DNA of 64,000 bases from a virus: the IMG/VR virus record IMGVR_UViG_3300036826_000357, positions 1-64,000 of that record, one strand, 5' to 3'. Below the pieces are notes generated by a model, which was not told the DNA's origin, ran no database searches, and was given only the letters and a program-made list of their open reading frames with translations. Numbering within the stretch: the stretch's first letter is position 1; every line of letters starts with the position of its first letter. Of this stretch, positions 13,465-28,130 are shown one piece after another. Both the position numbers and the translations under genes were made by a program.

Positions 13465-13468
13465 TAGC

Positions 13469-14276: not shown

Positions 14277-14317
14277 CAGCTACCTCCCCTCACATAGGCC
14301 ACTTCCCTGAGCTTTTG

Positions 14318-15091
14318 TCAACCCTCGGGATCGACCATGGTCTCGTTGGTCGGCGCTTCCACCTTCGCCAGCTTGACTCCATAGGCCCGCTGGAGATTGG
14401 CCAGGTGCCACTCCAACGACTGCTCCGGGTCGACTGCATTCGCCCGGTAGTCCGTACAGATCAGATCGAGCGCATCCCCACGACTCAGCGGAGCGGTCTT
14501 CTGGTCGGCTCCGGCAACCTGCTCGATGCACGCTTCGACGTTTTCCCGCTGCTCTTCCGTCATCCGTACCTGTAACGTCACCATCAAATCGTCGGTGTCC
14601 TCATCCGTATCATCCGCCCGCCGCTTCGCCCGTTCCTTCGTCACTGCCTCGGTAATCTGCGCTGCCGTCATACTCTTTGCACGTTCCAGCCATTCCTCCA
14701 ACGTCTCCGATGTCGCCACCCGGAGCAATTCACGCGATTTCGCCCAGCCCGCTTCCTGCAATTTGGTCGGAGTCAACCCCAGACTCTTTGCTTTGAGGTA
14801 GACACGGATCAGATACATCGCCGGCCGGTAGCCGATTCCCAGCACCTTCGGACAGTAATCCCGGAACGGCAACTTCGAGTCTTGCTTCCAGCGGTCGTTC
14901 TCGTAGAGGTAGTTCAGGCAGCCCCCCTGCAAGTACCGCGAACAGTCGCCGGTATCGCGGAGCTTCCCGATTAACGCGGTGACTTGTGGTACCGAGACGA
15001 CAACAGCCGGAGATTTCTCCGGGTCACAGACATGCAACGCCTGCTCAAAGACACCAGTTTGTGCGGCAACACTTTGCTCAGCCATGACCAC
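14318..15091 (-). CDS. Putative DNA-binding protein (DUF3102-like)
   Basis: GG-L...F-DYC...LGIGYRPAMYLI...GWAK-RELL pattern. Confidence 0.55.
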   Translation of the reverse strand: MVMAEQSVAAQTGVFEQALHVCDPEKSPAVVVSVPQVTALIGKLRDTGDCSRYLQGGCLNYLYENDRWKQDSKLPFRDYCPKVLGIGYRPAMYLIRVYLKAKSLGLTPTKLQEAGWAKSRELLRVATSETLEEWLERAKSMTAAQITEAVTKERAKRRADDTDEDTDDLMVTLQVRMTEEQRENVEACIEQVAGADQKTAPLSRGDALDLICTDYRANAVDPEQSLEWHLANLQRAYGVKLAKVEAPTNETMVDPEG

Positions 15092-15100
15092 AACCTCCCA

Positions 15101-15439
15101 CTACTGATCCCGTTCATCATCATCCTCATATGGTCCCCGACGAGGAGAGAGACAGAACTCGATCCAGTCGCCGAATACTGATAATCCCTTATCGCTGTTC
15201 TGCACCAGACGACCATGAACAACAATGCGGCTGCCGGCTTCTAACCGATCCAGACAGCGTGCGGCACGCTTCCCGAAGACCACAATCGGGACGACCAATG
15301 CGCGATTCGACTGCTCTGCTGGGCCTCCATCATTCACTTCCAGAAGTAACTGCGCGATCGGTCCGACCCGCTGCGTCTTGTCTTCGATCGGATCCTCCCG
15401 CAATACACCACTCAACGTCAGAAAATTAAGGCTCCGCAC
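15101..15439 (-). CDS. ssb: Single-stranded DNA-binding protein
   Basis: LN...LSG...DP...VVFGKRA...GSRIVVHGRL; acidic tail. Confidence 0.8.
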   Translation of the reverse strand: MRSLNFLTLSGVLREDPIEDKTQRVGPIAQLLLEVNDGGPAEQSNRALVVPIVVFGKRAARCLDRLEAGSRIVVHGRLVQNSDKGLSVFGDWIEFCLSPRRGPYEDDDERDQ

Positions 15440-16025
15440 GACCTTTACCCTCCGCCACCCGGTCGAGAAGCCGCAACTTCAGTTCCAGAGCGCCGTGATC
15501 CCGCAACATGGCGGGACGCACGATAATCTCCACTCCGGTGCGTCGACCGTAGAATTTGACGATGTGCTCATCCACGATTTGCGCATCGTCCTTCCACACC
15601 ACACCCGTCAGACAGTCCTCGACTGCCCGGGTCAGCTTCAACACATCCGGCTTCTTCGTATGCCACGGGGGCGCATTGCGCCGGAGCGTACCACCCGGTG
15701 TCCAGTGACCTTTCACACGCGGCAATACAAAGAGCAGATTGAGAATGACCGGCCCCTCGAATGGGGAGAACTTCCATGCCTGCTGCGCGGCGAACTGGAC
15801 GGCGGCACGCCAGTGCTTCACCCGGTCGCCACTCGCATCGGAGACCGCGACATGCGTCTTCCCGTCCTTGCCGCGATAGGGGAACGCACGCTTCGAGCCA
15901 CCCGGGACCGGCAGACCGGCCACGAAGAAGCGGACGGTCAGTTCATCTTGTAAAGCATCGGTCGGCTGCGGGGCAGGAAATAGCTCGCGGGTCGGCTCGA
16001 CTGGCACACGCTCGTTCTCCACCAT
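15426..16025 (-). CDS. rusA: RusA-family Holliday junction resolvase
   Basis: GLPVPGGSKR...KPDVLKLTRAVEDCLTGVVWKDDAQIV. Confidence 0.85.
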   Translation of the reverse strand: MVENERVPVEPTRELFPAPQPTDALQDELTVRFFVAGLPVPGGSKRAFPYRGKDGKTHVAVSDASGDRVKHWRAAVQFAAQQAWKFSPFEGPVILNLLFVLPRVKGHWTPGGTLRRNAPPWHTKKPDVLKLTRAVEDCLTGVVWKDDAQIVDEHIVKFYGRRTGVEIIVRPAMLRDHGALELKLRLLDRVAEGKGRAEP

Positions 16026-16806
16026 GCTGGATTTCCTTCAGCTTCGCGGCAACGCGATTCCAGACCCGGGCATCGAAGCGGATCATGAACTCTCGGAACG
16101 GCGACTTCTTCTCCAATGCCATCGAGACATAGAGAATCCGCCCCCACGATAATCCGGCGAGCTTCATGTAGACGTGCAGACGGAATTCGTGCTCTGGCTG
16201 CGGAGCCTTCAACAGCTTGAACAGCGCACCATCGATCGTCTTGATTTCCAACACGCCGAGCCCATAGAGCGGATCCTTGTCCAGCCCGTCCAAGTGCCCA
16301 ACCAGCTTCAACTCCTCGTCCTTGTACTCCGGCTCGACGTAATCGAAACGGCGAGAACCACAGGCACAGTACGTGGGCATCTTGCCGGTAATGAGCCCGT
16401 TGCACCGGACACATTTCCATTGCCCGTAGAGCCGGCCCATCGGCCCGAGATACTGCTGCCGGACCAGATCATGCACCGTCGAGCCTACGTCGAACCGCAT
16501 CCGTAGGCCCGGCGGGATCACCTTCAGCGTCTCGTCGCCGAACTGCTTCGCATACTTCCGAAACAGGACGACCTGCTTCGTGCATAGCTCCCACAGACTC
16601 GACGCGTGCACGTACTCCCCCTGCTCACGCGGCGGCTCGATCTCCGTCAGAAACACATCGAGATTCTCGCGGAGCGTCGGTCGGGGAGACTGCGGCGGGA
16701 TGGGAATCGGGACTACGGCTGGGACGGGAGCGGATTGCGCACGTTCATCGTCACCAGCCAGCAAACGGCCCAATCCCACATCAACCTCCGCCGCCAACGA
16801 TACCAC
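15943..16806 (-). CDS. PD-(D/E)XK exonuclease (Cas4/RecB-like)
   Basis: HASSL..C, GSTVH, GHLDG...LEIKT, YM, terminal C...CP...C. Confidence 0.8.
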   Translation of the reverse strand: MVSLAAEVDVGLGRLLAGDDERAQSAPVPAVVPIPIPPQSPRPTLRENLDVFLTEIEPPREQGEYVHASSLWELCTKQVVLFRKYAKQFGDETLKVIPPGLRMRFDVGSTVHDLVRQQYLGPMGRLYGQWKCVRCNGLITGKMPTYCACGSRRFDYVEPEYKDEELKLVGHLDGLDKDPLYGLGVLEIKTIDGALFKLLKAPQPEHEFRLHVYMKLAGLSWGRILYVSMALEKKSPFREFMIRFDARVWNRVAAKLKEIQHGGERACASRADPRAISCPAADRCFTR

Positions 16807-16812
16807 GAGACG

Positions 16813-17175
16813 CTAGCCAAGCTCACAATCCTCAAGCAACGTCTCGAACACATACGCGGGAACCATGATCCACAGCGCACCGTTCTTCAGCACTCCATCG
16901 TGACGGAATTCGATCCCGAAATAGGGATACTTTCCGAGCGCCATTGCTTCTCGCTCGATCTTCGCGAGTGCGGCGTGTTTCAGACGGTATTCCGACGCTG
17001 CCGTCCATTTCAACTCAGCCAGGAAGTGCCGGCGCTCGACATCCCCCCGCGCCATCGACTGATTGCCACTACCCGGTTGCCGCTTTCCCCCAACGTCCCG
17101 AGCATGACGCCGTTCCTGCCGCTTCGCAATACGTGCCGGTACGATGTCTCGATGTAAGTAGGTGCGTGGCATCAA
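16813..17175 (-). CDS. Hjc-like resolvase/endonuclease
   Basis: QE...GG.RQPGSG....GDV...AELKWT. Confidence 0.7.
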   Translation of the reverse strand: MMPRTYLHRDIVPARIAKRQERRHARDVGGKRQPGSGNQSMARGDVERRHFLAELKWTAASEYRLKHAALAKIEREAMALGKYPYFGIEFRHDGVLKNGALWIMVPAYVFETLLEDCELG

Positions 17176-17270
17176 CCCTCACAGGACAGGTGGCCCAGCT
17201 TTGCGCAAGACCCTCTGCTTCCGCTCGCAGCATCCCCCAACTCACGTTGAGCCGGACCACCCTTCGGAAC

Positions 17271-17599
17271 TCAGGCAGCGTCTTCTTCCCCGCCAGTGCG
17301 GGTATCATCCTTGTCCAGCCAGCAATAGACTTCCCCTTGCGGTCCCTGCTGCGTCCGGACTCGATAGCCCTGGACACATTCCGGATGCCGCAACACGAAT
17401 CCGTTAATGGACGACATGACGCCACGCGGCGTCCGTCCACCCAGATTCGTCAGCCGTGCGCGCTTCCCCGTCCGGATGCACTGCTCGATCAACGCGCGCC
17501 ATTGCATCGAGATTGCCGTCATCCGTCGTGGCACTTCCGCCGCCTCCACCAGATCAAACTCCACCGGGGCCTTGCCCGAATGCTTCGCCATCCGCCTCA
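17271..17599 (-). CDS. Hypothetical protein
   Basis: Overlaps recA end; start uncertain. Confidence 0.45.
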
Positions 17600-18816
17600 T
17601 CCTCCTCAGAAAGAGTGTGCGGCACGCTTTGCGGAGCGTGCGCACGTTCAACAATCGCGAGTTGCGCCTTAGCAAAATCATCGCGGTTTTGCAACCAGGT
17701 TTCAGTTATTTCGGCTAACGTACGAAATTCCTTATCGCCGGCATACCAACCTGGCTTTTCGAGGCTCTTCCGAACGTACCCCGTCCGTTTGGCGAAGCCC
17801 ATCACGGCCCGAAAATCGTCTGATTCCCCCTTCCGCACCGCCTCGTAATCTTTCAGCGCCAACGTAAACTCGCCCTCCATCCCCGGTGGAGAGACCTTAC
17901 TGTACTGCACTTTAAAGCCCATGGTCACTGCTTGTGGCGGTCGGGATTTGTCGCTTCCCTCCCAATGAATCTCTTTCTGCCGCATGCGAATGACCACGCT
18001 GCTCCCGAAGAGTTGACCACGCCCTCCCGGCTCGACCATCGGAATACTATGACCGAAGCCTGTTACCTTCTCCCGAAGTTGATTAATCAGGAGCACAGTC
18101 GGCATGCGGCCTTGTCGGCGTCCTTCTTGTACTGCCGACACGACTTTCCGCATCATCTTGTTGACTAGTCTCGCCTGGAGCCCCTGCTGCCAATTCATCG
18201 CCGTATCTTCGATTTCGGTAGTCGGCGTCATCTGCGCGATCGAATCGAGAACAACAAACCCGACTTCGTTCGTACGCAAAACGGCATCGATGATGTCGAT
18301 TGCCTGCTCCGCAAATTCCGGGCGTCCCAAGTAGAAGCGATTCTCGTCTAAATCCACGCCCATCACTTCTGCCCATGCAGGATCGAACACCCCTTCGACA
18401 TCGATCCACACCACCATGGATTGCTCCGGCTGCGCACACTGGCACTGTTCCCGCCAGAGACAGCATCGAGAGCACAAGCGCTGATAGTTGGCACTCGCTT
18501 TGAGCGCCCCGGTCGATTTCCCACACCCCTTCTGCCCGGAGAGCAAGGAAATGCGCGCGGCAGGTAACCCACCGACCAGCGCGTAATCGAGTGGGAAGAT
18601 CCCGAACGGGATACGCGGAATCGCCAGCGACACCATCCCACGCGCCGGTACCAAGACGCCGGCCCCGTACTGCTTCTCCAGGTGCTGCCGAACCACCGCG
18701 AATGGAACAACCTCGGTGGGAGCGAGCTTCTTCTTCCCCTTCGGCTTCTTGTCCTCCGGAGGCGTGGGAAGTGGCGATTCGCCTATGAAGTCCGACGACG
18801 GCTCATCCGGCCACAT
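17554..18816 (-). CDS. recA: RecA-like recombinase
   Basis: LDYALVGGLP, Walker A GQKGCGKST, WIDVEG, VVLDSIA, GLQARLV, LINQLREKV, PGG. Confidence 0.92.
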   Translation of the reverse strand: MWPDEPSSDFIGESPLPTPPEDKKPKGKKKLAPTEVVPFAVVRQHLEKQYGAGVLVPARGMVSLAIPRIPFGIFPLDYALVGGLPAARISLLSGQKGCGKSTGALKASANYQRLCSRCCLWREQCQCAQPEQSMVVWIDVEGVFDPAWAEVMGVDLDENRFYLGRPEFAEQAIDIIDAVLRTNEVGFVVLDSIAQMTPTTEIEDTAMNWQQGLQARLVNKMMRKVVSAVQEGRRQGRMPTVLLINQLREKVTGFGHSIPMVEPGGRGQLFGSSVVIRMRQKEIHWEGSDKSRPPQAVTMGFKVQYSKVSPPGMEGEFTLALKDYEAVRKGESDDFRAVMGFAKRTGYVRKSLEKPGWYAGDKEFRTLAEITETWLQNRDDFAKAQLAIVERAHAPQSVPHTLSEEDEADGEAFGQGPGGV

Positions 18817-19186
18817 GCTCCCTCCGCCGCTTCGCTTCCTCCGCCAACTCCGCTTGTTCCTTGATACAGCGATCCCCAACCCAGCGAGCGACGGCTTCGG
18901 CCGTCTGATCTACCTCAGCAACGTAACACGGCATCGAGAGAGAGACTTCGACCCGCGCCGAGTTGTAGTCACCCATGTTGATGGTGACTCCGTATTGATA
19001 CTTCACATAGGCAGGAGAGCCAATGAACGGGCGAATGGGAATCTTCCCAGACTCCGATTCCGGCTCTCGGTACGTAAACGATCGTTCGACATACCAGCGA
19101 CCGTCACGTTGCTCGACTCCCGCCGCCGTCATGAGATCCACGACGAGCACGGCCGATACCTGTGCCTCGCTCCCATCCATTCCCAT
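18803..19186 (-). CDS. Conserved phage hypothetical protein
   Basis: GVTINMGDYNSARVEVSLSMPC motif; start uncertain. Confidence 0.6.
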   Translation of the reverse strand: MGMDGSEAQVSAVLVVDLMTAAGVEQRDGRWYVERSFTYREPESESGKIPIRPFIGSPAYVKYQYGVTINMGDYNSARVEVSLSMPCYVAEVDQTAEAVARWVGDRCIKEQAELAEEAKRRREHVAG

Positions 19187-19586
19187 TCTCCCGCCGCTCC
19201 TCAACCAACTCACCCCAGAACTTGATCTGCTGCTGATCGAGGAGCCGCCCCAAGGCATCCAATTGCAGCACCATGTCCTTCACCGTATCGAGATTGGAAA
19301 AACCGTATGTCAGCAACGCCAGACGGACGTTGCCGAGTCCGTCGAGCGCATCACGATGCACCCGCTCGCGATACTGCTCGACGGTTAAATGGCCCTTGCG
19401 CTGGTTACAGCTTCGACACGCCGCCACCAGGTTTTTGTATACCGACCGGCCATTGGCGACACGAGGCGTCAGGTGATCGAGGGTCAGAATCCGCCGGTCA
19501 TACTCCCGGAGACCACAATACCAACACCTACCGTCACTCTTGCCCCGAACCAGCCGACTCAGCCGCCTCCGCCCCCGGTGACTCAT
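19104..19586 (-). CDS. HNH endonuclease
   Basis: CWYCG...TLDHLTP...NLVAACRSCNQRKG. Confidence 0.85.
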   Translation of the reverse strand: MSHRGRRRLSRLVRGKSDGRCWYCGLREYDRRILTLDHLTPRVANGRSVYKNLVAACRSCNQRKGHLTVEQYRERVHRDALDGLGNVRLALLTYGFSNLDTVKDMVLQLDALGRLLDQQQIKFWGELVEERRENGNGWERGTGIGRARRGSHDGGGSRAT

Positions 19587-20106
19587 GGCTCAAACCCTTC
19601 GGCATCTGCTTCCAGCGGAAATGTATCAGCCGCTGAAATACGATGAGTCGCGGATTCGCCTTCACAGCGGACTGGAGCCGGGCCAAACGAAAGCATTCGA
19701 TAATGGCCTTCGCCTGGTCCTCGGTGTAGAGCCTCCACTTCGCTGCTGTATGGTACGTTGGCTTCGGGAGAATCCCCTTCGCCTCCCACAGACAGAGCGT
19801 TTTTGTGGTTCGCCCCAGTGCAGCGGCTACTTCATTGATAAGGTACACGCGCACAGTCCGCACGACGCCCGTTGCATCATCATAAATCCCGAGCATGCGT
19901 GGCTGTCCCGGTTTCAAACGGATTATTGCAGCTTGCTCCTGCTTCCGTTCATTGTACCAGCGCATCGCACGTCGTTTGACAGCATTACGATACTCCGGAT
20001 CATTCGCGTATTTTTCCTTCCGATACTGGAGGAGATACGGCCGATTGTTCTGGTAATACTGCTTCTGATACCGCTGCTGGTCGGTAAGCTGCGTGGCAAT
20101 CTCCAT
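19534..20106 (-). CDS. MerR-family HTH DNA-binding protein
   Basis: INEVAAALGRTTKTLCLWEAKGILPKP...RLYTEDQ. Confidence 0.75.
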   Translation of the reverse strand: MEIATQLTDQQRYQKQYYQNNRPYLLQYRKEKYANDPEYRNAVKRRAMRWYNERKQEQAAIIRLKPGQPRMLGIYDDATGVVRTVRVYLINEVAAALGRTTKTLCLWEAKGILPKPTYHTAAKWRLYTEDQAKAIIECFRLARLQSAVKANPRLIVFQRLIHFRWKQMPKGLSHESPGAEAAESAGSGQE

Positions 20107-20211
20107 CTAGTTCTCCCTGTATTAGCCCTCCCTTCAGCATCACTTTTCATGTCTCAACCCTTGCACGAGACTCTATCAACACGATCCCAATGGGCTTGTA
20201 GTGGTTTGGAC

Positions 20212-20400
20212 TCAACAATCATTCCGTTGCAGCCATCGCTGCCGACATTCCACACAGTCCAAATGACTGTGCACCAGATCATATAACGGACACTTCTCCG
20301 AGCCAATACAGCGAAATGCCTGAAATTGCGAGACTTGCGCCGGCCCCCGACACTTCGGACACGGCTGATCGAGGATGCTGAATCCCAACTGCTCCATCAC
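20212..20400 (-). CDS. Small Zn-finger protein
   Basis: CPKC...C...C...H.DCVEC. Confidence 0.55.
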   Translation of the reverse strand: MMEQLGFSILDQPCPKCRGPAQVSQFQAFRCIGSEKCPLYDLVHSHLDCVECRQRWLQRNDC

Positions 20401-21146
20401 TCGTCATCGGGCCACGGGGCATCATCCGGCGGGGGCTCCGGCTGCTCCGATCCATTCACCGGCTCCGGCTGCGGAGGAGGAGGAGCGACCGATCCGCGCG
20501 ACATCCGCCGGACCAGGCGATGCATGTCTCCCTGCGGTAAGGGCGCGAGGACGGTCTTGTAGTCGTACGCCTTCAGGTAGTCGGCCGGCTTCATGTCGCG
20601 GAGAAACGCTAGATACTCCTTGGCACCGGCTGGACTACCAAATTTCGCCAGGATGTCGACCTTCTCCTCGAAGTCAAACTGCGAGCCGGTCGAGAGATCC
20701 TTATCGGTCCCGCGCGTTATCTCGTAGATCGCGCCGGTCAATCCATCACGTTTGATCGCCTGCGACCCCAGGATTGGCATCGCCTTCTTCCGAATGGGAA
20801 ACAATTCCCGGCCGAACCGATGCTTGACTCCCTTCCCATCTGTCCACTCCCGCAGATTCCCAATCGTGATGTAGGAGACAAACTCGGGATCGCTCCCATA
20901 GTCGCAGAACGCGCAGTCATACCCAAACTCGGTCGAGCAGGTAAACCAGTTCCGCCAACTGCCATCCAGGTAAAAGTGATGCTCATTGACACCGAAGGGC
21001 GCGATTACCCAATCGGTATCGAGAATGACGAGTCGCCCACTCGTACCGGGTCTGAGCCAGAAGCGGCGAATCATGCGGCGCTTATGCCCGCTCTTCGCTG
21101 CCGCTTCCTGATTCGCTGACCAACCTGACTTGTACCAGCCCATCAC
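20397..21146 (-). CDS. gp32-like phage ssDNA-binding protein
   Basis: RRFWLRPG...EHHF...WFTC...CAFC; acidic DDAPWPDDE tail. Confidence 0.7.
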   Translation of the reverse strand: MMGWYKSGWSANQEAAAKSGHKRRMIRRFWLRPGTSGRLVILDTDWVIAPFGVNEHHFYLDGSWRNWFTCSTEFGYDCAFCDYGSDPEFVSYITIGNLREWTDGKGVKHRFGRELFPIRKKAMPILGSQAIKRDGLTGAIYEITRGTDKDLSTGSQFDFEEKVDILAKFGSPAGAKEYLAFLRDMKPADYLKAYDYKTVLAPLPQGDMHRLVRRMSRGSVAPPPPQPEPVNGSEQPEPPPDDAPWPDDE

Positions 21147-21155
21147 CGCCTCTTT

Positions 21156-21605
21156 TCAGGCGACCGCTGGCTTTTGCTCCGTCGTCTCCGCGAGTGTCTT
21201 TTTCCGGTCGCCGATCTTCAGCGTTGTATCGCGTTTCGTGTGCTCTTGACAGTGCCGATCGTACAACGTCTTCGTCAGCACCGCTTTGGCACGGCCGAGT
21301 GGCACTTCGGCAATGGAAAAGAACACTGCCGAATCGCACGCCTCGTCCTTGTAGAGCGCTTCCGCATCAATGGCATGGAAATGCTCATGTTCAAGGATCG
21401 CGGTATGCTTCTCGCCGAGCACCAGGACATCGGCTCCCTTCTCGGCAAAGAGCAACGGCTCCAACTGCGCTCGCGCCTCGTCGTAGGCTTTCTTCGCGGT
21501 AGACGCCGCAATGCGCAGTGCGCCAGCCCGATCAATCAGGGTGGCAAGCAGCTTGTCGGTGTTTACTCTGGCACGCTTCTTCGATGGTGTATCCTTCCGG
21601 CTCAT
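21156..21605 (-). CDS. Hypothetical protein
   Basis: GGGAGGT RBS before ATG 21605. Confidence 0.6.
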   Translation of the reverse strand: MSRKDTPSKKRARVNTDKLLATLIDRAGALRIAASTAKKAYDEARAQLEPLLFAEKGADVLVLGEKHTAILEHEHFHAIDAEALYKDEACDSAVFFSIAEVPLGRAKAVLTKTLYDRHCQEHTKRDTTLKIGDRKKTLAETTEQKPAVA

Positions 21606-22075
21606 GTTACCTCCCAGCACTCCAACGGCACGCCCCAGCGTTTGCCGATTCCGGCATCGTACCAATGCCCCGCATCGCGTGCCGTCTGGAACGATGTGCG
21701 GTAGACCCGATTCGCTACTCGGTCGACCATTTCGAGGTACTGAATGTGACGACCCAACGGGCCGCACAACTGCTCCCACAGATCGGCTTGGAAGGTAACC
21801 AGCCGCTCCTTCCAGTAGATGAAATCCTCGGCTTCGCCGCCCCCCTGATAGAGATGAGCACTCGAATCGATGTACCCACATTGCGCCATATGTCGGCTCC
21901 TTGGCTTCCGCGCCTGCACTGGTATCGTGTACCGATGGTCGAGCACCGTGCCGGCTCGTTGTGCGCCCGGGACAGGAACACGGATCGGCGGGATCGGTGC
22001 AGCCGGCGGGATCGGTGCCGGCAGCATCCCCGGGAACACGCCCTGCTCATCGTCGCGCTTCATAAATTTGACCAC
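21602..22075 (-). CDS. Hypothetical protein
   Basis: Coupled to next gene; start overlaps 20-bp palindrome. Confidence 0.6.
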   Translation of the reverse strand: MVKFMKRDDEQGVFPGMLPAPIPPAAPIPPIRVPVPGAQRAGTVLDHRYTIPVQARKPRSRHMAQCGYIDSSAHLYQGGGEAEDFIYWKERLVTFQADLWEQLCGPLGRHIQYLEMVDRVANRVYRTSFQTARDAGHWYDAGIGKRWGVPLECWEVT

Positions 22076-22085
22076 GTGGTCAAAT
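22066..22085. promoter_or_regulatory. Perfect 20-bp palindrome ATTTGACCACGTGGTCAAAT
   Basis: Identical core at 38302 and 48160. Confidence 0.8.
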
Positions 22086-22180
22086 CAGCCATGACGGCTC
22101 AGACTCCCTTTCCTGATCGGCAGACGGCAAAGCCCCCGACCAGGAATCCAAGGGTTAGGAGTCAAAACCGTCATGGCTGA
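22085..22180 (-). other. Long imperfect hairpin (about 96 nt)
   Basis: TCAGCCATGACGG/CCGTCATGGCTGA, GACTCC/GGAGTC and TTCCTGGTCGG/CCGATCAGGAA nested stems. Confidence 0.6.
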
Positions 22181-22185
22181 CTCGA

Positions 22186-22228
22186 CCAAAGAAGAAGGCC
22201 CCCACGGGGGATCCATGGGAGCCTTCTC
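22186..22228 (-). terminator. Intrinsic terminator
   Basis: GAAGGCTCCCATGG...CCGTGGGGGCCTTC then TTCTTT. Confidence 0.7.
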
Positions 22229-22337
22229 CGGGTGCGCCCGGTCTCGCGCGAACACTGGACGCGGTTTACCTGTAGGACAGGATCGGCCATCTGAGAGGGG
22301 GATCTCATTGGCAGACAGCCAGCACCACCCCACATCA
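22186..22337 (-). ncRNA. Putative small regulatory (c4/CI-like antisense) RNA
   Basis: Promoter TTGACA-17-TATACC upstream, several internal hairpins, intrinsic terminator, complementarity to 23610-23636. Confidence 0.6.
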
Positions 22338-22343
22338 CCGCTG

Positions 22344-22372
22344 GGTATAGCCGGTCATTCCCTCTTTGTCAA
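22344..22372 (-). promoter_or_regulatory. Sigma70-like promoter
   Basis: TTGACA-17-TATACC. Confidence 0.7.
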
Positions 22373-22375
22373 CGG

Positions 22376-23218
22376 TTAGATGCGGGGCGTCATTGGCTCG
22401 AAGTCGAACTTCTCGCCGCTCCGGCAGGGCCAGAAGACGTGCTCGAACAGATCCTTCGAGACGGTGTAAACCTCGTCGTAGTCGTCGCCGGGATTGATCT
22501 TCGTGTAGCAGGCAGCGACGCGCTGCGGCAGTCCGTCGTGCAGATTCAGATCGATCATGGTCGAGCAGACATCGCACGCCACCCACGCGCCCTTCGGCAT
22601 GAACGGCCGGCGCGACTTCGACGCAGCCGGCGTGTACGGCTCCGTCTGATTCACCGGATACCGCCACCGTGGTGCCGTGCTGTGACAGAAGTCACAGGAT
22701 GGACCGGACGGACGGACTTGACCGACCACTCTGGCGCTGCCACCGGCCGCTTCCACTTCGGCAACCATGCCGGCGCACTCCGAGCCATGTACCAGCCGAA
22801 GCTCGATCTGAAACGGCGCGAGATTCGTGTCGGGTACGGCGACTTCGTAGCGTCCCTGATCGTCATCGAGGAGCGAGACCGTCACTTTCCCGCGTGTCAC
22901 CGCCAGTGCCAGTGCGGTCACGAAATGACCGGTTGCCTTCGCTTCCTTCCGACCTTCGGCAGCAGGAAGATGCTCCGATGCCTGGAGCAGAACGGAACTG
23001 ACGGCAAGTAGTTGCACGACGAACTTGCAGACATCCATGTCGAGCTTGTCGACTTCCACCCGCAAGGCATCCATATCGATGGTTCCCGGGGGCCGGATGG
23101 TGGCAAAGAGCCAGGCCCGCCAGAAATTGAAGTTCTCCGGCGAGCATTGTGCGATCTTGAATACGAGTCCCTGATTCTCATCTGAGACTATCTCAGCAGC
23201 CACTACTTCTTCAGCCAT
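22376..23218 (-). CDS. Hypothetical protein with C-terminal Zn-finger
   Basis: CDFC...WRYP...WVACDVC. Confidence 0.7.
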   Translation of the reverse strand: MAEEVVAAEIVSDENQGLVFKIAQCSPENFNFWRAWLFATIRPPGTIDMDALRVEVDKLDMDVCKFVVQLLAVSSVLLQASEHLPAAEGRKEAKATGHFVTALALAVTRGKVTVSLLDDDQGRYEVAVPDTNLAPFQIELRLVHGSECAGMVAEVEAAGGSARVVGQVRPSGPSCDFCHSTAPRWRYPVNQTEPYTPAASKSRRPFMPKGAWVACDVCSTMIDLNLHDGLPQRVAACYTKINPGDDYDEVYTVSKDLFEHVFWPCRSGEKFDFEPMTPRI

Positions 23219-23258
23219 AAATCATACGATTCCTCGACTTTCTTTTGGGTTAGGAGAA

Positions 23259-23341
23259 GGGGCCGGGAGCACCGCCGCGCACTGTGGTGACGCCAGATCG
23301 TCGGCGGCAAGTGGACTGGCGGATACTTACGCTCCCGGCCC
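23259..23341 (-). ncRNA. Putative structured RNA / 5' leader
   Basis: Begins at predicted TSS; GGGCCGGGAGC pairs with GCTCCCGGCCC; inner CGCCAG/CTGGCG stem. Confidence 0.45.
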
Positions 23342-23536
23342 GGAGGTAGGATAGCGACGCGGTGATTCTTTGTCAAGCCTGGTGTGGTTGAACGGAGCCC
23401 GTACCCGGAGCCAGCGCTCCAGCCGGCGCGGCTCGCGCGTCTCGGCATGGGCAGCGACGCGGACCCGGCGGGCGATGTACTTCAGCCCAGCCGGCGTACC
23501 GAGCCAGGCACGAAACTGCTGCACGATCGGCTCCAT
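23327..23536 (-). CDS. Small basic hypothetical protein
   Basis: Downstream of TTGACA at 23568-23573. Confidence 0.4.
   Translation of the reverse strand: MEPIVQQFRAWLGTPAGLKYIARRVRVAAHAETREPRRLERWLRVRAPFNHTRLDKESPRRYPTSGPGA
23348..23376 (-). promoter_or_regulatory. Sigma70-like promoter
   Basis: TTGACA-17-TATCCT. Confidence 0.7.
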
Positions 23537-23582
23537 GATGGAGCTAATCAGCGCCTGGATAGCCCTTTGTCAAGGTCCGCGC

Positions 23583-23636
23583 AAAAGAAAAAGCCCGGTC
23601 CGGCTGGAAGTTCGCACCTTCCAGCGAGACCGGGCG
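23583..23636 (-). terminator. Intrinsic terminator with GTGCGAA loop (putative antisense target)
   Basis: GCCCGGTCTCGCTGGAAG-gtgcgaa-CTTCCAGCCGGACCGGGC then TTTTTCTTTT. Confidence 0.75.
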
Positions 23637-23668
23637 GGTAGGGGGACCACGTGGCCGAGTGGGGCCGT

Positions 23669-23905
23669 CTACGACGGTTCAAGCCTGACGCGACCAGGAT
23701 CGGCTGTCAAGCGCGCATGTTTCACGCCGGGCTCTTTCAACTCCGGCACACCGTCCCGGGCGATCTTCTCGCGTAACGCATCAATGATAAACTGCTGGAT
23801 GGTCGTCTCGTTTTCTGCCGCCATCACCCGCACCTGTTGATAGAGCACCCGGGGAATGTGCGCACTGGTGGGTTGCGTCGGGCCATTACGCCGCTGTCTC
23901 ACCAT
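23669..23905 (-). CDS. Ribbon-helix-helix DNA-binding protein
   Basis: TSAHIPRVLYQQVRVMAAENETTIQQFIIDALREK. Confidence 0.65.
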   Translation of the reverse strand: MVRQRRNGPTQPTSAHIPRVLYQQVRVMAAENETTIQQFIIDALREKIARDGVPELKEPGVKHARLTADPGRVRLEPS

Positions 23906-24443
23906 TGCGCTTCTCCAGCATCCGTTCGAGCACTTCGCGCAGACCACGATTGGGAATCGCAGACACCGATGCCCGGACTTCCTCCGTGGTCGGAGCCGGC
24001 TTCTCCTCGATCACCACAGGCGTACTCTTCTGCTTCCGGCGCTGCACACTGAACTCCGCTGCAATCCGGTCCCGGATCGCATGGAAGCTGCGCAGGGTCG
24101 GAATCGGCGGCAACCACTCCATCCCGCGTGTGGCCCGGAGATACTTCCAATGCCGGATGCCGAAGTCGAGCAGCTTGAGCACATCGGCCACCGGCACACG
24201 CGTCACCATCAAGCCGATCAAGCCGTAGTCCGCAGTAGACCACGGCAACACCATCGTGCCCGGGTAGACGTCTTCGAGCAGTTGCCGCCACTGAATCTCG
24301 ACGGCGCGGAGTGTACGCGGCTGCTCGACGGCGCAGAGCGCGCGACGCGCAGCCACCTTCGCCGCTAAATCGACTGCCTCGAATGGCGTCTTCATCGCGC
24401 CATTCCCATCGACGGTGATCGTTTGTGCAATGTGCCGATCCAT
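23886..24443 (-). CDS. Hypothetical protein (possibly replication-associated)
   Basis: Open frame with phage-like composition; start uncertain. Confidence 0.55.
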   Translation of the reverse strand: MDRHIAQTITVDGNGAMKTPFEAVDLAAKVAARRALCAVEQPRTLRAVEIQWRQLLEDVYPGTMVLPWSTADYGLIGLMVTRVPVADVLKLLDFGIRHWKYLRATRGMEWLPPIPTLRSFHAIRDRIAAEFSVQRRKQKSTPVVIEEKPAPTTEEVRASVSAIPNRGLREVLERMLEKRNGETAA

Positions 24444-24456
24444 GCCAATCGCCAGT

Positions 24457-24810
24457 TCATCGTGTACTCCTATCCTGACACCAGTTTTGATGCAGGACAA
24501 GCCACTCTTGATGCAGGACAAGCCACTCCGCCATCGGGACGAAGCAAGGCCCGTCGCCGTCCACCCAGCGAAACCACCCCCCGGTTTGGACTGCAAGCCA
24601 CCGAAGGGATTCACTGACGGCATCCGACCCAAGCGTACTCCATAACCCATGCTCCCAACCGTCTTGCCATGTAGCGCACCATTGCTCCTCTGACAGCGCA
24701 GACATGACGAAGAGCAGCAAGAACCGAGCCGGATCTAAGCCTTGCAGCCGGCTGTCGTCGCTGGAAAACGCCATCTGATTCAGCGTGAGGACCTGCGCGA
24801 TCACGATCAA
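24457..24810 (-). CDS. Hypothetical Trp-rich protein
   Basis: MSALSEEQWCATWQDGWEHGLW...GGWFRW. Confidence 0.6.
   Translation of the reverse strand: MIVIAQVLTLNQMAFSSDDSRLQGLDPARFLLLFVMSALSEEQWCATWQDGWEHGLWSTLGSDAVSESLRWLAVQTGGWFRWVDGDGPCFVPMAEWLVLHQEWLVLHQNWCQDRSTR
24487..24528. repeat. Tandem 21-bp duplication
   Basis: TTGATGCAGGACAAGCCACTC x2 (EWLVLHQ x2). Confidence 0.85.
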
Positions 24811-24834
24811 CCGGGCGTCATCGCTATCCTCCGA

Positions 24835-25308
24835 TCATTCAAAACGCTGACCGTGATACAGGGGGAGACCCCCCTGACAGCATGTGCATTGGAGTGTCCC
24901 CGATATGAATGCCGTTTTCCCTCCATCCGGAAGATTGGTGATATTCAGACCGATGGGTCCGGTACACACACCATCCATGTGTATCACTTCCGGAAGACCG
25001 GGAGCAGATTCGCCATGCAGTGTATACCCGGAACAACTTCCCTCCATCGCCCAATACGCATCGATGATGCTCTTGCGCACAGAGATGTCGTCTGGGTGTT
25101 CGAGCCGAGTGACCAGGAACGGAGTCGGACAGGTCGTAAACGTTGTGTACGGTCCCGGGCTCGTGGTTGTCGTGGTATCCGCCGCCGCGCAATCCGCATT
25201 CTTTAGTTGCTTCTCCAGTCGAGCACAGCGACGCGCGGAGAAGGCATCCGATGCGAAGGTCGGAGTTACGAAGAGAATCAGAACACAAATCCGAATTAGG
25301 TGCTTCAT
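24835..25308 (-). CDS. Secreted Cys-rich protein
   Basis: AAAGGAGG RBS; signal peptide MKHLIRICVLILFVTPTFA; Thr linker. Confidence 0.7.
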   Translation of the reverse strand: MKHLIRICVLILFVTPTFASDAFSARRCARLEKQLKNADCAAADTTTTTSPGPYTTFTTCPTPFLVTRLEHPDDISVRKSIIDAYWAMEGSCSGYTLHGESAPGLPEVIHMDGVCTGPIGLNITNLPDGGKTAFISGTLQCTCCQGGLPLYHGQRFE

Positions 25309-25317
25309 TTTCCTCCT

Positions 25318-26043
25318 TTACTGCCGATAGCGACCGGGTATCCAAGGACACAAATCATCCCCACGCGCGTTCGTACAACTCTTTTCAGCGTCCCAGGCCA
25401 GGAAATCCCACGCGATAAAACACCCCGTTGAGACATCCGTGACCATGAAGGAGTTATGGATATACCGTGGGCCACCTGGATAATCGTTGATGTACGCGAG
25501 CGTGTAGTACATGTATACATTCGGCATCGTGTACGGATCAGGTCTGATCTGGGCATACCAGTTCCAGATCACGTAATGGAACTTCTGCGGAGGGTTTCCA
25601 AATTCCTCATCCGCTTCGTCGTAGTCGACGTACGAGTATGGCACAGGACTCGCCGTCGCTCCGATATCGGGATAGTCCGCAGACTTGGACCATCCCCACG
25701 GCGTCGCCGGAATCAAGAACAGCACCGGCAGGTTCACGCGGAGAGGGCCTCCCTCATACGCTCGCTTGGCAGCGTGCGCGACCGGATTCCCGTCCTTATC
25801 CAGGTACCACGCCGGCCACGTAAAGGATATCTCCATCCCGTCCATGACTCCCGGATTCGCCAGAAAGCGTAAGTTCCCCGGAAGGGATTCCGAACAGTAC
25901 GTTCGAGTCGGATCGCCCCCGCCTGTGCGAATACCTTCGTTCTCTGCCCAGAACAAAGGTGGGATCACAGGACATCCAGGCACGACATTTGCCATGAGAA
26001 ACAGCGGAGAGGTTAACACGATATACCGTAAATACCGCTTCAT
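25318..26043 (-). CDS. Secreted/lipoprotein-like protein
   Basis: MKRYLRYIVLTSPLFLMANVVPG-C. Confidence 0.65.
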   Translation of the reverse strand: MKRYLRYIVLTSPLFLMANVVPGCPVIPPLFWAENEGIRTGGGDPTRTYCSESLPGNLRFLANPGVMDGMEISFTWPAWYLDKDGNPVAHAAKRAYEGGPLRVNLPVLFLIPATPWGWSKSADYPDIGATASPVPYSYVDYDEADEEFGNPPQKFHYVIWNWYAQIRPDPYTMPNVYMYYTLAYINDYPGGPRYIHNSFMVTDVSTGCFIAWDFLAWDAEKSCTNARGDDLCPWIPGRYRQ

Positions 26044-26122
26044 GGACTGAACCTGCTTCTCGTCCCGGATGCGGCCCCCCACATCCTGAGACGTGTTGGA
26101 GTATCTCCCCGGATACTGCTTC

Positions 26123-26344
26123 TTATGGTCTATTCATCAGTACCAAGTTCACCGTCAGGACCAGTTGCACTAAATCGCCGAGTAATTCCTGTTCCTCCTC
26201 CCGGCTCACAGACGCCAGTTCGTGTGCCACCGCGCGATGCAGGGAATCGTCGGCTGCGTCGGAGTCACCAACCTGGTGCCGTGCCCCAACTCGCGCGATG
26301 AACTCGTAGACCGTCATGCAGCGCGCGTTGCCTTCATTCACCAT
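26123..26344 (-). CDS. Hypothetical protein
   Basis: TGATG coupling. Confidence 0.5.
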   Translation of the reverse strand: MVNEGNARCMTVYEFIARVGARHQVGDSDAADDSLHRAVAHELASVSREEEQELLGDLVQLVLTVNLVLMNRP

Positions 26345-26775
26345 CAGTCGTACCCGAGAATCGCATTTAATGCGGCCACCGCTTCCGCCGCCTTCCAGCC
26401 ACAGTCGAGCTTGTGCTTCACAGCGACGAGTTGGGCGATGTCACACGCCTTCTCGTAGGTGTCGTTCTCCATGGCAATCTCGCTTCCAGCCACGAGCGCG
26501 TCCTGCATGTCGCACACGTCCCATCGCCAGGAGCCTTCCACGGGTCGGCCGACCTTCACGGCATGATCGCGCATCCGCGCCCATTCGAGAATCTCGTACC
26601 GGGTCCGTTCGAGCACGTTCCGCTCAAGCTCCCGGTAGACAACGGTCTCCCGCCAGATCCGATCGATCGTCAGGAACAACGACCGTTCGAGCCAGGAACA
26701 CTCATCCCACCAGCGCAGCCGCGCTTCCGCTAACTGCGTATCGGTCAATTCCCGGGGCGGATCGTGAGTGTCCAT
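26344..26775 (-). CDS. Hypothetical protein
   Basis: TGATG coupling (MDTHDPP...). Confidence 0.6.
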   Translation of the reverse strand: MDTHDPPRELTDTQLAEARLRWWDECSWLERSLFLTIDRIWRETVVYRELERNVLERTRYEILEWARMRDHAVKVGRPVEGSWRWDVCDMQDALVAGSEIAMENDTYEKACDIAQLVAVKHKLDCGWKAAEAVAALNAILGYD

Positions 26776-27059
26776 CAGACTTCGTAGCCATGGAGCCGGC
26801 AATACGCACGCCAGACTTCCTGCTGCTCCACGGTGGACGGGGCCTCGAACTGCTGCTCACACGCGTTGTACCCGGCAACGAACCAGGGATGCCACCACCC
26901 ACAGGGATAGAAGCCGGGATCGGCTGCCTGCGCGTAGGATTCCCCGAGCGCCCGGATGAGATACGGCTCGACGTGACTCACATACGGCGGTTCCCACTCA
27001 CCCATCGACTCGTCCGGCATCGAGTCGCATAGCTCCGGCGGTGTCCATTCAGGACTCAT
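26775..27059 (-). CDS. Hypothetical protein with DPGFYPCGWWHPWFVAG motif
   Basis: Motif shared with 27123-27338. Confidence 0.65.
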   Translation of the reverse strand: MSPEWTPPELCDSMPDESMGEWEPPYVSHVEPYLIRALGESYAQAADPGFYPCGWWHPWFVAGYNACEQQFEAPSTVEQQEVWRAYCRLHGYEV

Positions 27060-27083
27060 CGGTTCCCTTCCTCTTTGTCAACT

Positions 27084-27101
27084 TTTGACCACGGGGTCAA
27101 C
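27084..27101. promoter_or_regulatory. Degenerate copy of 18-bp palindrome next to TTGACA
   Basis: TTTGACCACGGGGTCAAC (2 mismatches). Confidence 0.55.
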
Positions 27102-27122
27102 TGCCCACCCTGACGCAAAGCG

Positions 27123-27338
27123 TTACAGTTCATGGACCAACTCCTCCACCCTCTCCCAAGCAGTTGCCCAGCCGGCCACGAACCACGGATGCCACCAGCC
27201 GCACGGATAAAAACCGGGATCGTCGGCTATCCAATCGACTGTCCACCCAAATCTGTCTCCGGACTCCGGGTCTTCTACCGTAAAAGCCTCCGGGTCCGGT
27301 CTGTTCCGTTCCGGCTCCGGATGGTCCTTCGCTCTCAT
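27123..27338 (-). CDS. Hypothetical protein with DPGFYPCGWWHPWFVAG motif
   Basis: Motif shared with 26775-27059. Confidence 0.65.
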   Translation of the reverse strand: MRAKDHPEPERNRPDPEAFTVEDPESGDRFGWTVDWIADDPGFYPCGWWHPWFVAGWATAWERVEELVHEL

Positions 27339-27413
27339 TTCCGGTCTCCCTCACATGGATATTAAGATCTTCTCCTCGGACGGAAGGGATCCGGAACGGA
27401 TCCCGGAGTCCAC

Positions 27414-28130
27414 TTAGTATGACATGGCAGAATTGCCATGTGTAGGCTTCGGCTTCGTTGTCAAGCCAGGAACTCGGTACGCTTCCCACGCTGGTTGGTC
27501 AGGATGAGCCGCCTGCCAGGCTTTGATGGCGTCCCGATAGGCCGGATCGGTTTCCTCCGGCGGCGGCTCTGGAGGCGGGATGTACTTCGGGACAGTCGGT
27601 TTCCGCCGGCCCATGAAACATTGCCCGAGCTTTTCCTGCACGAACTGCTCGAACTTTTTCACACGATCCCGCACACGAACGAAGCGCTCTTTGTTTCGCA
27701 TGGCGTAATGCACACCCAAGAGCTTCGTGAGCAGCAGCGGATTCAGCCGTATCTCCGAGCATCGGTGGAAGCGTCGTTTCACTTCAAAGATGCCGGCGGC
27801 AACAAACTCGGCAACTCCACGACATACCCAGCTTTCGCTTCTGCTCAGTTTCTCCGCCATGGTTTGCCGGCGCATCCGGAACGCTCGATGCTTAAATCCG
27901 CCGTCAGAAAACGTATGCGCGACGACCAAGTTGAAGATCGTCATGAAGCGACCGATTCTCCCACGCATCAGTTCCGGATTCAGTGTCACCCCGTAGCAGT
28001 TGGAGCCACAGAGATTCTCCACATCCGATCCGAGACTGCCATCTGGGACGGCGAAGGCTTCAGCCAGAACTGGCTGAAGGGCATCCGCTACGTCGACCAG
28101 GGTTTCCTGCCATCCACTCCACTTCCCCAT
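27414..28130 (-). CDS. Putative replication initiator (winged HTH)
   Basis: GAGGAGG RBS; RQTMAEKLSRSESWVCRGVAEFVAAGIFEVKRR resembles phage/plasmid initiator HTH. Confidence 0.55.
   Translation of the reverse strand: MGKWSGWQETLVDVADALQPVLAEAFAVPDGSLGSDVENLCGSNCYGVTLNPELMRGRIGRFMTIFNLVVAHTFSDGGFKHRAFRMRRQTMAEKLSRSESWVCRGVAEFVAAGIFEVKRRFHRCSEIRLNPLLLTKLLGVHYAMRNKERFVRVRDRVKKFEQFVQEKLGQCFMGRRKPTVPKYIPPPEPPPEETDPAYRDAIKAWQAAHPDQPAWEAYRVPGLTTKPKPTHGNSAMSY

What the first reader, a model, noticed from the sequence alone, without database searches (positions are those of the whole stretch)
22186..23636. Small RNA with bipartite complementarity to a terminator 1.4 kb away (antisense switch)
Seen: a minus-strand promoter (TTGACA-17-TATACC, 22344-22372) and an intrinsic terminator (22186-22228) bound a roughly 150-nt multi-hairpin transcript with no credible ORF. 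Its segment GUUCGC-GCGAGACCGGGCG (22253-22235) is complementary to the minus-strand terminator at 23583-23636. Thirteen nt pair with the 5' arm CGCCCGGUCUCGC (23636-23624), 6 nt pair with the loop region GCGAAC (23615-23610), and 8 target nt loop out. Known: P1 c4, P4 CI and N15 CA RNAs act on bipartite sites to control termination or translation. Inference: loop-kissing then strand invasion could open this terminator, giving an RNA-controlled antitermination or immunity switch in front of the recombination genes.
Basis: partly seen in the sequence, partly recalled or inferred. Interest (0 to 1): 0.8.

Follow-up and report, generated by a model that had tools for sequence, protein, structure and literature searches.

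The report
Short terminated leader RNA in phage
A soil phage has a promoter followed about 150 bases later by a strong terminator in front of its recombination genes, and the match between this short RNA and another terminator 1.4 kb away is real but cannot be told from coincidence.

Summary
The promoter belongs to a CTTGACAAAG family: 13 sites against 2.3 expected. T2 (22186-22228) and T1 (23583-23636) are the two strongest terminator hairpins in the 85-kb phage record. The 13+6-nt complementarity is exact.

The antisense-switch reading has no support beyond that match.
- Rfam finds no c4-type or other family.
- The 13-nt segment is mostly paired inside its own RNA, and the duplex cannot pay for opening folded T1: net about +2.6 kcal/mol. 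Only the nascent 5' arm is a possible target.
- 8 of 4216 natural genome windows bind T1 as well. T1 ranks 41st of 28,296 target windows.
- The flanking genes are ORFans, so covariation cannot be tested.

My best reading is a promoter-proximal terminated leader, like lambda 6S/StxS or IsrK, gating a roughly 12-kb recombination operon. A 112-nt RNA rod specific to the minus strand and a 20-bp palindrome lie just behind T2. The RNA body itself is not unusually structured (z -1.1). Interest is modest.

The parts
22344..22373 (-). Promoter P4: extended -35 GTTGACAAAG (22373-22364), 17-nt spacer, -10 TATACC (22349-22344)
   Evidence: Sequence read. It belongs to the CTTGACAAAG family, with 13 sites at up to 1 mismatch against 2.31 expected and 0 of 100 shuffles reaching 13. 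The -10 lacks the final T, so the generic scan did not list it.
22229..22337 (-). Leader or small-RNA body, about 109 nt, from the predicted start to the terminator
   Evidence: Fold -41.0 kcal/mol, z -1.12, with 29 of 200 shuffles folding as well. No Rfam family. It holds one of the two GAUCCCCC hairpin loops.
22235..22253 (-). Segment GUUCGC-GCGAGACCGGGCG, complementary to T1
   Evidence: (pair I8). Opening cost inside its own RNA is 12.1 kcal/mol for the 19 nt, 10.9 for the 13 nt and 2.2 for the 6 nt.
22186..22228 (-). Intrinsic terminator T2: GC-rich hairpin with stem 22194-22226, loop AUCCC, and an interrupted U tract
   Evidence: -26.3 kcal/mol, second strongest in the record. Weak terminator-type Rfam matches only: ctRNA_p42d 25.2 bits against a cut-off of 50.
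22077..22188 (-). 112-nt RNA rod (31-nt inverted arms plus an inner hairpin) starting at the T2 tail
   Evidence: pair I1. Minus strand -76.4 kcal/mol, z -10.0. Plus strand -55.3 kcal/mol, z -6.2.
22066..22085 (.). 20-bp perfect palindrome ATTTGACCACGTGGTCAAAT abutting the start of the next gene
   Evidence: 7 copies in the 85-kb record: 3 exact, 2 with 1 mismatch, 1 with 2 and 1 with 3.
21602..22063 (-). First gene behind T2 (153 aa), a conserved phage family of unknown function
   Evidence: 18 distant loci were found.
22376..23218 (-). 280-aa ORFan gene between T1 and P4, with a C-terminal zinc-ribbon-like domain
   Evidence: Only itself among 5.77 billion proteins. Residues 171-277 resemble roughly 100-aa phage proteins in the Atlas model (TM 0.83-0.85 by row).
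23348..23377 (-). Promoter P3 (CTTGACAAAG, -10 TATCCT), followed by a long leader hairpin
   Evidence: The leader 23200-23345 folds at -57.4 kcal/mol, z -3.09.
23565..23574 (-). Promoter P2 -35 block (CTTGACAAAG), 10 nt behind the T1 tail
23583..23636 (-). Intrinsic terminator T1: 9+8-bp stem with one C-C mismatch, 7-nt loop, tail UUUUUCUUUU. It holds the two target patches 23636-23624 and 23615-23610.
   Evidence: -33.5 kcal/mol, strongest in the record; z -5.5.
23669..23947 (-). Arc/ribbon-helix-helix-like gene that T1 terminates
   Evidence: PF20605 at E 0.0039, below its cut-off. phrog_582 Arc-like repressor at E 0.0011. An identical contig covering 23665-23854 is present in an RNA library.

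Best explanation
The flagged unit is a promoter-proximal terminated leader. P4 starts a transcript that mostly stops about 150 nt later at terminator T2, releasing a short RNA as a by-product. The fraction that reads through continues into a 112-nt RNA rod, passes a 20-bp palindromic protein-binding site, and enters the roughly 12-kb block that holds the RecA/UvsX-like recombinase, HNH and exonuclease genes. T2 therefore acts as a gate in front of the recombination genes. This resembles lambda PR'-tR' (6S RNA/StxS) or Gifsy-1 IsrK. The complementarity to T1 is most likely coincidence between two GC-rich non-coding elements.

Shown: the promoter motif family, both terminators, the strand-specific rod, the repeated palindrome, and the absence of another family promoter downstream.

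Inferred: that P4 fires, that T2 terminates only partly, and that read-through is regulated.
For: - P4 carries the 10-nt block shared by the phage's promoter family, and all sites are co-oriented with genes.
- T2 and T1 are the two strongest terminator hairpins found in 85 kb.
- On the minus strand there is no further family promoter between T2 and 9546. The generic scan finds only one weak site there (20306-20278, 9 of 12 matches) at chance frequency: 6 found against 6.6 expected over 9000-28000.
- The rod directly behind T2 is 21 kcal/mol more stable as minus-strand RNA than as plus-strand RNA (-76.4 against -55.3, z -10.0). It therefore appears selected as RNA, which requires transcription through T2.
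- The T2 tail is interrupted by C (UUCUUUGG), which is consistent with partial termination.
- The downstream genes are a recombination module: RecA PF00154 at 3.1e-36, exonuclease phrog_2506 at 2e-33, HNH.
- Published precedents: a terminated PR' leader becomes the StxS sRNA (PMC7547250, abstract read). IsrK exists as a short terminated form and a read-through form (PMC4825925, abstract read).
Against: - No transcript data. The one RNA library that holds phage sequence has contigs only at 23665-23854 and 24006-24223.
- The -10 of P4 lacks the conserved final T.
- No Q-, N- or other antiterminator was recognised among the 40 proteins scanned against PHROGs or the 20 scanned against Pfam.
- Other promoter types, for example phage-specific ones, could drive the downstream block.
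- The unit is not conserved. In 17 distant loci, the homologue of the first downstream gene sits in tight operons in the loci I cite.
- The complementarity to T1 is statistically unusual, and this reading leaves it unexplained.
Confidence: 0.45

Rival explanations
1. First reader's model. The short RNA acts in trans on the nascent upstream transcript. It pairs with the 5' arm (13 nt) and loop (6 nt) of T1 before the 3' arm is made, prevents hairpin formation, and lets upstream transcription run into the 280-aa gene and beyond.
For: - Exact 13+6-nt complement in the correct RNA-RNA sense.
- It is the longest complement of this RNA in the record.
- 0 of 2000 shuffled bodies reach its duplex energy, and 0 of 300 shuffles reach the alignment score.
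- Both arms lie in non-coding DNA, whereas 4 of the 6 pairs of 13 nt or more lie in ORFs.
- The pairing is perfect across T1's C-C mismatch. It is the minimum-energy dimer with the nascent 5' half (ddG -14.9 kcal/mol).
- The 6-nt patch sits partly in a small loop.
Against: - It cannot open folded T1: -35.5 hybridisation against +12.1 and +26.0 opening costs. The full-length cofold keeps T1 intact.
- The time window is only the roughly 25-40 nt between the two arms (inference).
- The 13-nt seed is mostly paired in its own RNA.
- 8 of 4216 natural windows do as well, and T1 ranks 41st of 28,296 targets.
- P2, P3 and P4 sit downstream of T1, so the regulatory need is unclear.
- No c4-type Rfam match.
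- No relatives are available for covariation.
- The scan tool's description puts the scan at some 250,000 windows. By my estimate, coincidences at the 1e-3 level are expected many times at that scale (inference).
Confidence: 0.1
2. A stand-alone trans-acting sRNA whose working parts are two hairpin loops carrying the same C-rich motif (GAUCCCCC). The loops would pair with G-rich or Shine-Dalgarno-like sequences of phage or host mRNAs, in the manner of 6C or RsaE-type RNAs.
For: - GATCCCCC occurs 6 times on the two strands of the 85-kb record, and 2 of those lie within this 152-nt RNA.
- Both copies sit in loops with unpaired probability of 0.9 or more.
- The only non-terminator Rfam hint is 6C, at 21.9 bits.
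- The single genome hit for the neighbouring gene is an Acidimicrobiales MAG (Actinomycetota). From recall, that is the phylum in which 6C RNAs are known.
Against: - The 6C score is far below its cut-off of 47, and the first 6C hairpin is not matched.
- One of the two loops is simply the terminator loop.
- Only a few phage start regions carry GGGGGA (for example 77577-77584 and 73006-73013), with no clear enrichment.
- The host is unknown.
- A repeated 8-mer within 150 nt is not very rare by chance (my rough estimate is 0.15-0.3 before requiring loops).
Confidence: 0.15
3. There is no separate RNA. P4 is inactive, and 22375-22190 is the 3' untranslated region of the 280-aa gene, a promoter-gene-terminator 'moron' driven by P3, with T2 as its terminator.
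For: - The -10 TATACC lacks the final T.
- The RNA body is not unusually structured (z -1.12).
- The 280-aa gene is an ORFan with its own promoter and leader.
Against: - P4 has 9 of the 10 positions of the family's conserved block, placed right after the stop codon.
- Other family members also have weak -10 boxes, for example TACAGG at 9546.
- The strand-specific rod behind T2 still needs a transcript source.
Confidence: 0.2
4. The 13-bp inverted repeat works at the DNA level, for example as the ends of an invertible or mobile 1.4-kb segment. Alternatively, the region encodes a leaderless small protein (the 55-aa ORF 22338-22171).
For: - Inverted 13-bp arms bracket P2, P3 and the 280-aa gene.
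- GTG/ATG lie 6-9 nt after the -10.
Against: - No joints or inversions in contigs of 3 DNA runs, although contigs drop rare variants.
- No recombinase was recognised nearby.
- The ORFs run through T2, so the terminated RNA would have no stop codon.
Confidence: 0.04

Closest known systems
Lambda-type PR'-tR' short transcript (6S RNA) and its Stx-phage form StxS (PMC7547250, abstract read)
   Same: A promoter is followed within about 150-200 nt by an intrinsic terminator, in front of a long operon. The terminated leader is a discrete small RNA that can acquire trans functions.
   Different: No Q-like antiterminator or qut-type site was recognised here. The operon behind the terminator holds recombination genes, not late or lysis genes. 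No sequence or Rfam relation.
Gifsy-1 prophage IsrK (PMC4825925, abstract read)
   Same: A short terminated RNA and a read-through mRNA come from the same promoter. The read-through form carries a structure that limits expression of the first downstream ORF.
   Different: I found no complement of 10 nt or more between the short RNA and the rod or start region behind T2. There is no sequence relation.
P1/P7 c4, P4 CI and N15 CA antisense RNAs (recalled from memory; Rfam holds a C4 family)
   Same: A phage-encoded small RNA with two short complementary patches to a site in a nearby transcript of the same strand.
   Different: No Rfam match at E of 10 or below. As I recall, those RNAs block translation or cause premature termination, and they are cut from a longer transcript. 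Here the proposed effect is the opposite, preventing termination, and the RNA has its own promoter and terminator.
Antisense-RNA transcriptional attenuation of plasmids pT181 and pIP501 (recalled)
   Same: A trans RNA must catch a nascent leader within a few tens of nucleotides to decide a terminator's fate.
   Different: There the countertranscript is fully complementary, comes from the opposite strand, and favours termination. Here the RNA is encoded 1.4 kb away, has 13+6 nt of complementarity, and would prevent termination.
6C RNA, Rfam RF01066
   Same: Two hairpins expose C-rich loops, and the second hairpin doubles as the terminator.
   Different: 21.9 bits against a gathering score of 47. 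The first hairpin is not aligned. Not a member.

Membership tests
c4-type phage antisense RNAs (P1 c4, P4 CI, N15 CA) | Match to the curated covariance model (sequence plus structure) | tested here: not met
   cmscan of the whole window at gathering scores found only a tRNA. cmscan of 21500-24500 at E of 10 or below gave 7 weak matches, none to a c4 family.
c4-type phage antisense RNAs (P1 c4, P4 CI, N15 CA) | Two short patches complementary to a target in a transcript of the same strand | tested here: met
   Patches of 13 nt and 6 nt with 8 target nt between them. Bipartite duplex -35.5 kcal/mol.
c4-type phage antisense RNAs (P1 c4, P4 CI, N15 CA) | Pairing blocks translation or causes premature termination of the immunity operon; the RNA is processed from a longer transcript (features recalled) | tested here: not met
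   The target is the 5' arm of a terminator, so pairing would prevent termination. The RNA has its own promoter and terminator. Processing itself cannot be tested here.
Promoter-proximal terminated leader (lambda 6S / StxS type) | Promoter followed within about 200 nt by an intrinsic terminator | tested here: met
   P4 at 22373-22344 and T2 at 22228-22186.
Promoter-proximal terminated leader (lambda 6S / StxS type) | The downstream operon depends on read-through, with no promoter of its own | tested here: inconclusive
   No family promoter on the minus strand between 22190 and 9546, and only one chance-level generic site. The strand-specific rod behind T2 argues for read-through. Unknown promoter types cannot be excluded.
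Promoter-proximal terminated leader (lambda 6S / StxS type) | A phage antiterminator (Q-like) that loads at the promoter | tested here: inconclusive
   None recognised among 40 proteins scanned against PHROGs or 20 scanned against Pfam. Most of the proteins are ORFans, and the last 21 kb of the record was not scanned.
6C RNA (RF01066) | Score at or above Rfam's gathering threshold | tested here: not met
   21.9 bits against 47, E 7.5.

The most novel reading that the evidence does not exclude
A phage small RNA, the terminated leader made from P4, base-pairs with the nascent 5' arm and loop of an intrinsic terminator 1.4 kb upstream and suppresses termination in trans. This would couple the upstream Arc-like operon to the genes that follow. 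I know of no natural case of a trans RNA preventing intrinsic termination by occupying a terminator arm. My two paper searches listed none, but they were not exhaustive.
Probability: 0.1. Interest if true: 0.7.

Novelty: new member of a known kind. Interest (0 to 1): 0.3.

Why it matters
If the gate reading is right, this orphan soil phage controls entry into its recombination genes with four stacked elements: a promoter-proximal terminator, a long RNA rod, a repeated palindromic operator and a family of near-identical promoters. That would make it a compact, testable regulatory hub in a phage whose proteins are almost all unknown. If the antisense reading were right, it would be a new way of controlling an intrinsic terminator in trans, and simple enough to reuse as a synthetic switch. 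On present evidence the second is a long shot.

Tried and rejected
- Rfam. The whole window at gathering scores and 3 kb at E of 10 or below gave nothing beyond terminator-like hits.

- Search for relatives to test covariation.
  - The 280-aa gene, the exact 19-mer in viral contigs, the RecA-like gene, the 254-aa gene and the RHH gene gave no relatives.
  - The phrog_17226 gene gave one locus at 40% identity, with lower GC and dense genes.
  - The 153-aa downstream gene gave 2 viral, 15 metagenome and 1 MAG locus at 33-41% identity.
  - blastn gave 41 weak rows, none touching the small RNA, T2 or T1. nhmmer gave nothing.
  - In the loci I cite, the homologue is directly preceded by a same-strand ORF. 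Examples: L008 3024-3284 against a match at 3278, L011 4747-5007 against 5001, L014 4771-5001 against 5001, L020 2518-2781 against 2778.
  - Phage GenBank records gave no match to 21000-25000.

- Sequencing runs.
  - 5 runs from 5 studies were listed, and 2 may be the source of this DNA.
  - Four runs were laid, all as contigs. There were no other letters and no joints.
  - The RNA run has no contig on the small RNA, which says nothing about absence.

- RNAduplex of the whole RNA against 60-nt windows gave unrealistic, heavily bulged duplexes and was dropped.

- A same-sense similarity between the RNA and the end of the RHH gene scored 21, within the shuffle range (mean 17.2, maximum 25), and was dropped.

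- An IsrK-like pairing of the short RNA with the rod: no complement of 10 nt or more.

- The Atlas look-up of the 280-aa protein gave only unnamed phage clusters.

- Supplementary files of papers were not consulted.
Full report
CONTEXT
- The window is bases 1-64000 of an 85,016-bp IMG/VR virus record, classed as linear with an estimated completeness of 69%.
- It is found in soil metagenome runs. GC content is about 0.53-0.65.
- Nearly all genes are on the minus strand.
- On the minus strand, downstream of the flagged region, lie these genes:
  - a conserved 153-aa gene
  - a phrog_17226 gene
  - a MerR-like gene
  - an HNH endonuclease
  - a RecA/UvsX-like recombinase (PF00154, 3.1e-36)
  - an exonuclease (phrog_2506, 2e-33)
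- Upstream lie an Arc/ribbon-helix-helix-like gene (weak matches) and ORFans.

THE OBSERVATION
Every element is at the stated place on the minus strand.
- The promoter is TTGACA-17-TATACC. It belongs to a family sharing the 10-nt block CTTGACAAAG.
  - There are 13 sites with up to one mismatch in the window, against 2.31 expected. 0 of 100 shuffles reach 13. One more site lies at 70206.
  - The sites lie before genes and point the same way. Three of them (P2, P3, P4) lie within 22364-23574.
  - The -10 of P4 lacks the final T, so the generic scan did not list it.
- A scan of my own for hairpin-plus-T-tract sites gave 26 rows, several of them overlapping.
  - T1 (-33.5 kcal/mol) and T2 (-26.3) are the strongest. 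The next is at 48118-48154 (-23.9).
- The complementary patches are exact: 13 nt plus 6 nt, with 8 target nucleotides between them.

IS IT MORE THAN CHANCE?
- Across the genome a 13-mer complement is unremarkable. 59% of 2234 random 152-nt segments have one somewhere in the record. The 13-mer with up to 2 mismatches occurs 4 times against 6.05 expected.
- Locally it is unusual.
  - It is the longest complement of this RNA; the next three are 11 nt.
  - Inverted pairs 60-3000 nt apart number 72 of 11 nt, 21 of 12 nt and 6 of 13 nt. None is longer.
  - Four of the six 13-nt pairs lie inside ORFs. The other two, this pair and the rod next to it, lie in the roughly 8.4% of the record that my rough ORF map leaves non-coding.
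  - Local alignment of the two regions scores 26. 300 mononucleotide shuffles give a mean of 17.2 and a maximum of 25.
  - RNAduplex of the 109-nt body against the T1 5' half gives -39.7 kcal/mol. 2000 dinucleotide shuffles give a mean of -27.7, sd 3.2 and minimum -39.5, and none reaches the observed value.
- Natural sequence is a harder control. 8 of 4216 genome windows, from about five places, bind the T1 5' half as well. The T1 window ranks 41st of 28,296 candidate target windows for this RNA.
- By my estimate the coincidence level is about 1e-2 for the 13-mer alone and about 1e-3 with the 6-mer. The scan tool's description puts the scan at some 250,000 windows, so many such cases are expected by chance (inference).

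PHYSICAL PLAUSIBILITY
- The bipartite duplex is worth -35.5 kcal/mol. Opening the 19 nt in the RNA costs +12.1, and opening the 27 nt in folded T1 costs +26.0, so the net is about +2.6.
- In a cofold with full-length T1, the terminator stays intact and the RNA pairs with the tail behind it (ddG -9.3 kcal/mol).
- With only the nascent 5' arm and loop, the proposed pairing is the minimum-energy structure (ddG -14.9 kcal/mol).
- The model can therefore work only co-transcriptionally, within the few tens of nucleotides between the two arms.
- The 13-nt segment is mostly paired in its own RNA. Only the UUCG part of the 6-nt patch is exposed.

WHAT THE RNA LOOKS LIKE
- The 152-nt RNA folds with z -4.1, but this comes from the terminator. 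The 109-nt body alone has z -1.12, with 29 of 200 shuffles folding as well.
- No Rfam family matches. There are only terminator-like hits and 6C at 21.9 bits against a cut-off of 47.
- One feature stands out. The motif GAUCCCCC occurs in two hairpin loops of the RNA, one of which is the terminator loop. That is two of only six copies on both strands of the record.

WHAT LIES BEHIND T2
- Starting within the T2 tail is a 112-nt rod with 31-nt arms.
  - As minus-strand RNA it folds at -76.4 kcal/mol (z -10.0). As plus-strand RNA it folds at -55.3.
  - Such a structure needs transcripts that pass T2.
- The rod's 3' arm runs into a 20-bp perfect palindrome (22066-22085) that abuts the ATG of the 153-aa gene.
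  - The palindrome has 7 copies in the record.
  - One copy lies directly upstream of the -35 of the promoter at 27073, and one lies directly behind the terminator at 48118-48154.
- No further family promoter lies on the minus strand until 9546. The generic scan adds only one chance-level site.

BEST READING
- P4, the leader and T2 form a promoter-proximal terminated leader that gates the recombination block. The short RNA is the terminated product.
- Published parallels are StxS, made by termination at tR' (PMC7547250, abstract), and IsrK, with a short form and a read-through form (PMC4825925, abstract).
- Weak points:
  - There are no transcript data. The RNA run holds identical contigs only at 23665-23854 and 24006-24223.
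  - The -10 is weak.
  - No antiterminator was recognised.
  - The module is not conserved.

COMPARATIVE EVIDENCE
- None can be had.
- The 280-aa and RHH genes next to the two sites have no relatives among 5.77 billion proteins.
- The viral-contig and phage searches found nothing close.
- The 18 distant loci of the downstream gene show no similar non-coding module.
- One of those loci is an Acidimicrobiales MAG, a faint hint about the host.

VERDICT
- The antisense switch can be neither shown nor excluded, and it leans towards coincidence.
- The locus is better described as a terminator gate with an associated short RNA. It is a new member of a known kind, in a phage with no close relatives.

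Noticed in passing
22066-22085; also 2709-2728, 27083-27102, 38302-38321, 48159-48178 in the window, and 74978-74997, 78478-78497 in the record beyond the window: A 20-bp perfect palindrome (core TTTGACCACGTGGTCAAA) occurs 7 times in the 85-kb record: 3 exact, 2 with 1 mismatch, 1 with 2 and 1 with 3. Most copies sit at gene boundaries, next to a promoter or behind a terminator. It looks like the operator set of one dimeric DNA-binding protein. The CACGTG centre recalls parS and KorB-type sites (from recall), and the phage has a ParB-like gene at 34202-35320.
   Followed up: partly
22077-22188 (-): A 112-nt RNA rod directly behind terminator T2. Minus strand -76.4 kcal/mol (z -10.0) against plus strand -55.3. 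It is a candidate RNase III site or translation block for the next gene.
   Followed up: partly
9546, 22364, 23368, 23565, 27073, 41151, 41720, 41951 (-); 42246, 44646 (+); 70206 in the record: A promoter family with a conserved 10-nt block CTTGACAAAG, followed after 13-14 further nt by a TAnnnT-like -10 box. A divergent cluster lies around 41.1-42.3 kb.
   Followed up: partly
23260-23341 (-): The leader of the 280-aa gene, transcribed from P3, forms a long GC-rich hairpin without a U tract. The stretch 23200-23345 folds at -57.4 kcal/mol, z -3.09.
   Followed up: no
23527-23545 (-): A 7-1-7 palindrome (GCTCCAT-C-ATGGAGC) sits at the predicted start of the P2 transcript. The ATG of a 69-aa ORF (23536-23327) lies in it. 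It may be an operator, a leaderless start, or both.
   Followed up: no
22376-23218 (-): A 280-aa ORFan. In the Atlas model, residues 171-277 carry two Cys pairs and resemble roughly 100-aa phage proteins of unknown function (TM 0.83-0.85 by row).
   Followed up: partly
21602-22063 (-): The 153-aa protein has a conserved core (RAGTVLDH...YQGGGE...YDAGIG). Relatives at 33-41% identity occur in 2 viral contigs, 15 metagenome contigs and one Acidimicrobiales MAG. Its function is unknown.
   Followed up: partly
23665-23854 and 24006-24223: A soil metatranscriptome run holds contigs identical to the Arc-like gene and to the 254-aa gene upstream of T1. This may reflect expression or DNA carry-over.
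   Followed up: no
22297-22304 and 22206-22213 (-): The same 8-mer, GAUCCCCC, sits in two hairpin loops of the short RNA. These are 2 of 6 copies in the whole record on both strands.
   Followed up: partly
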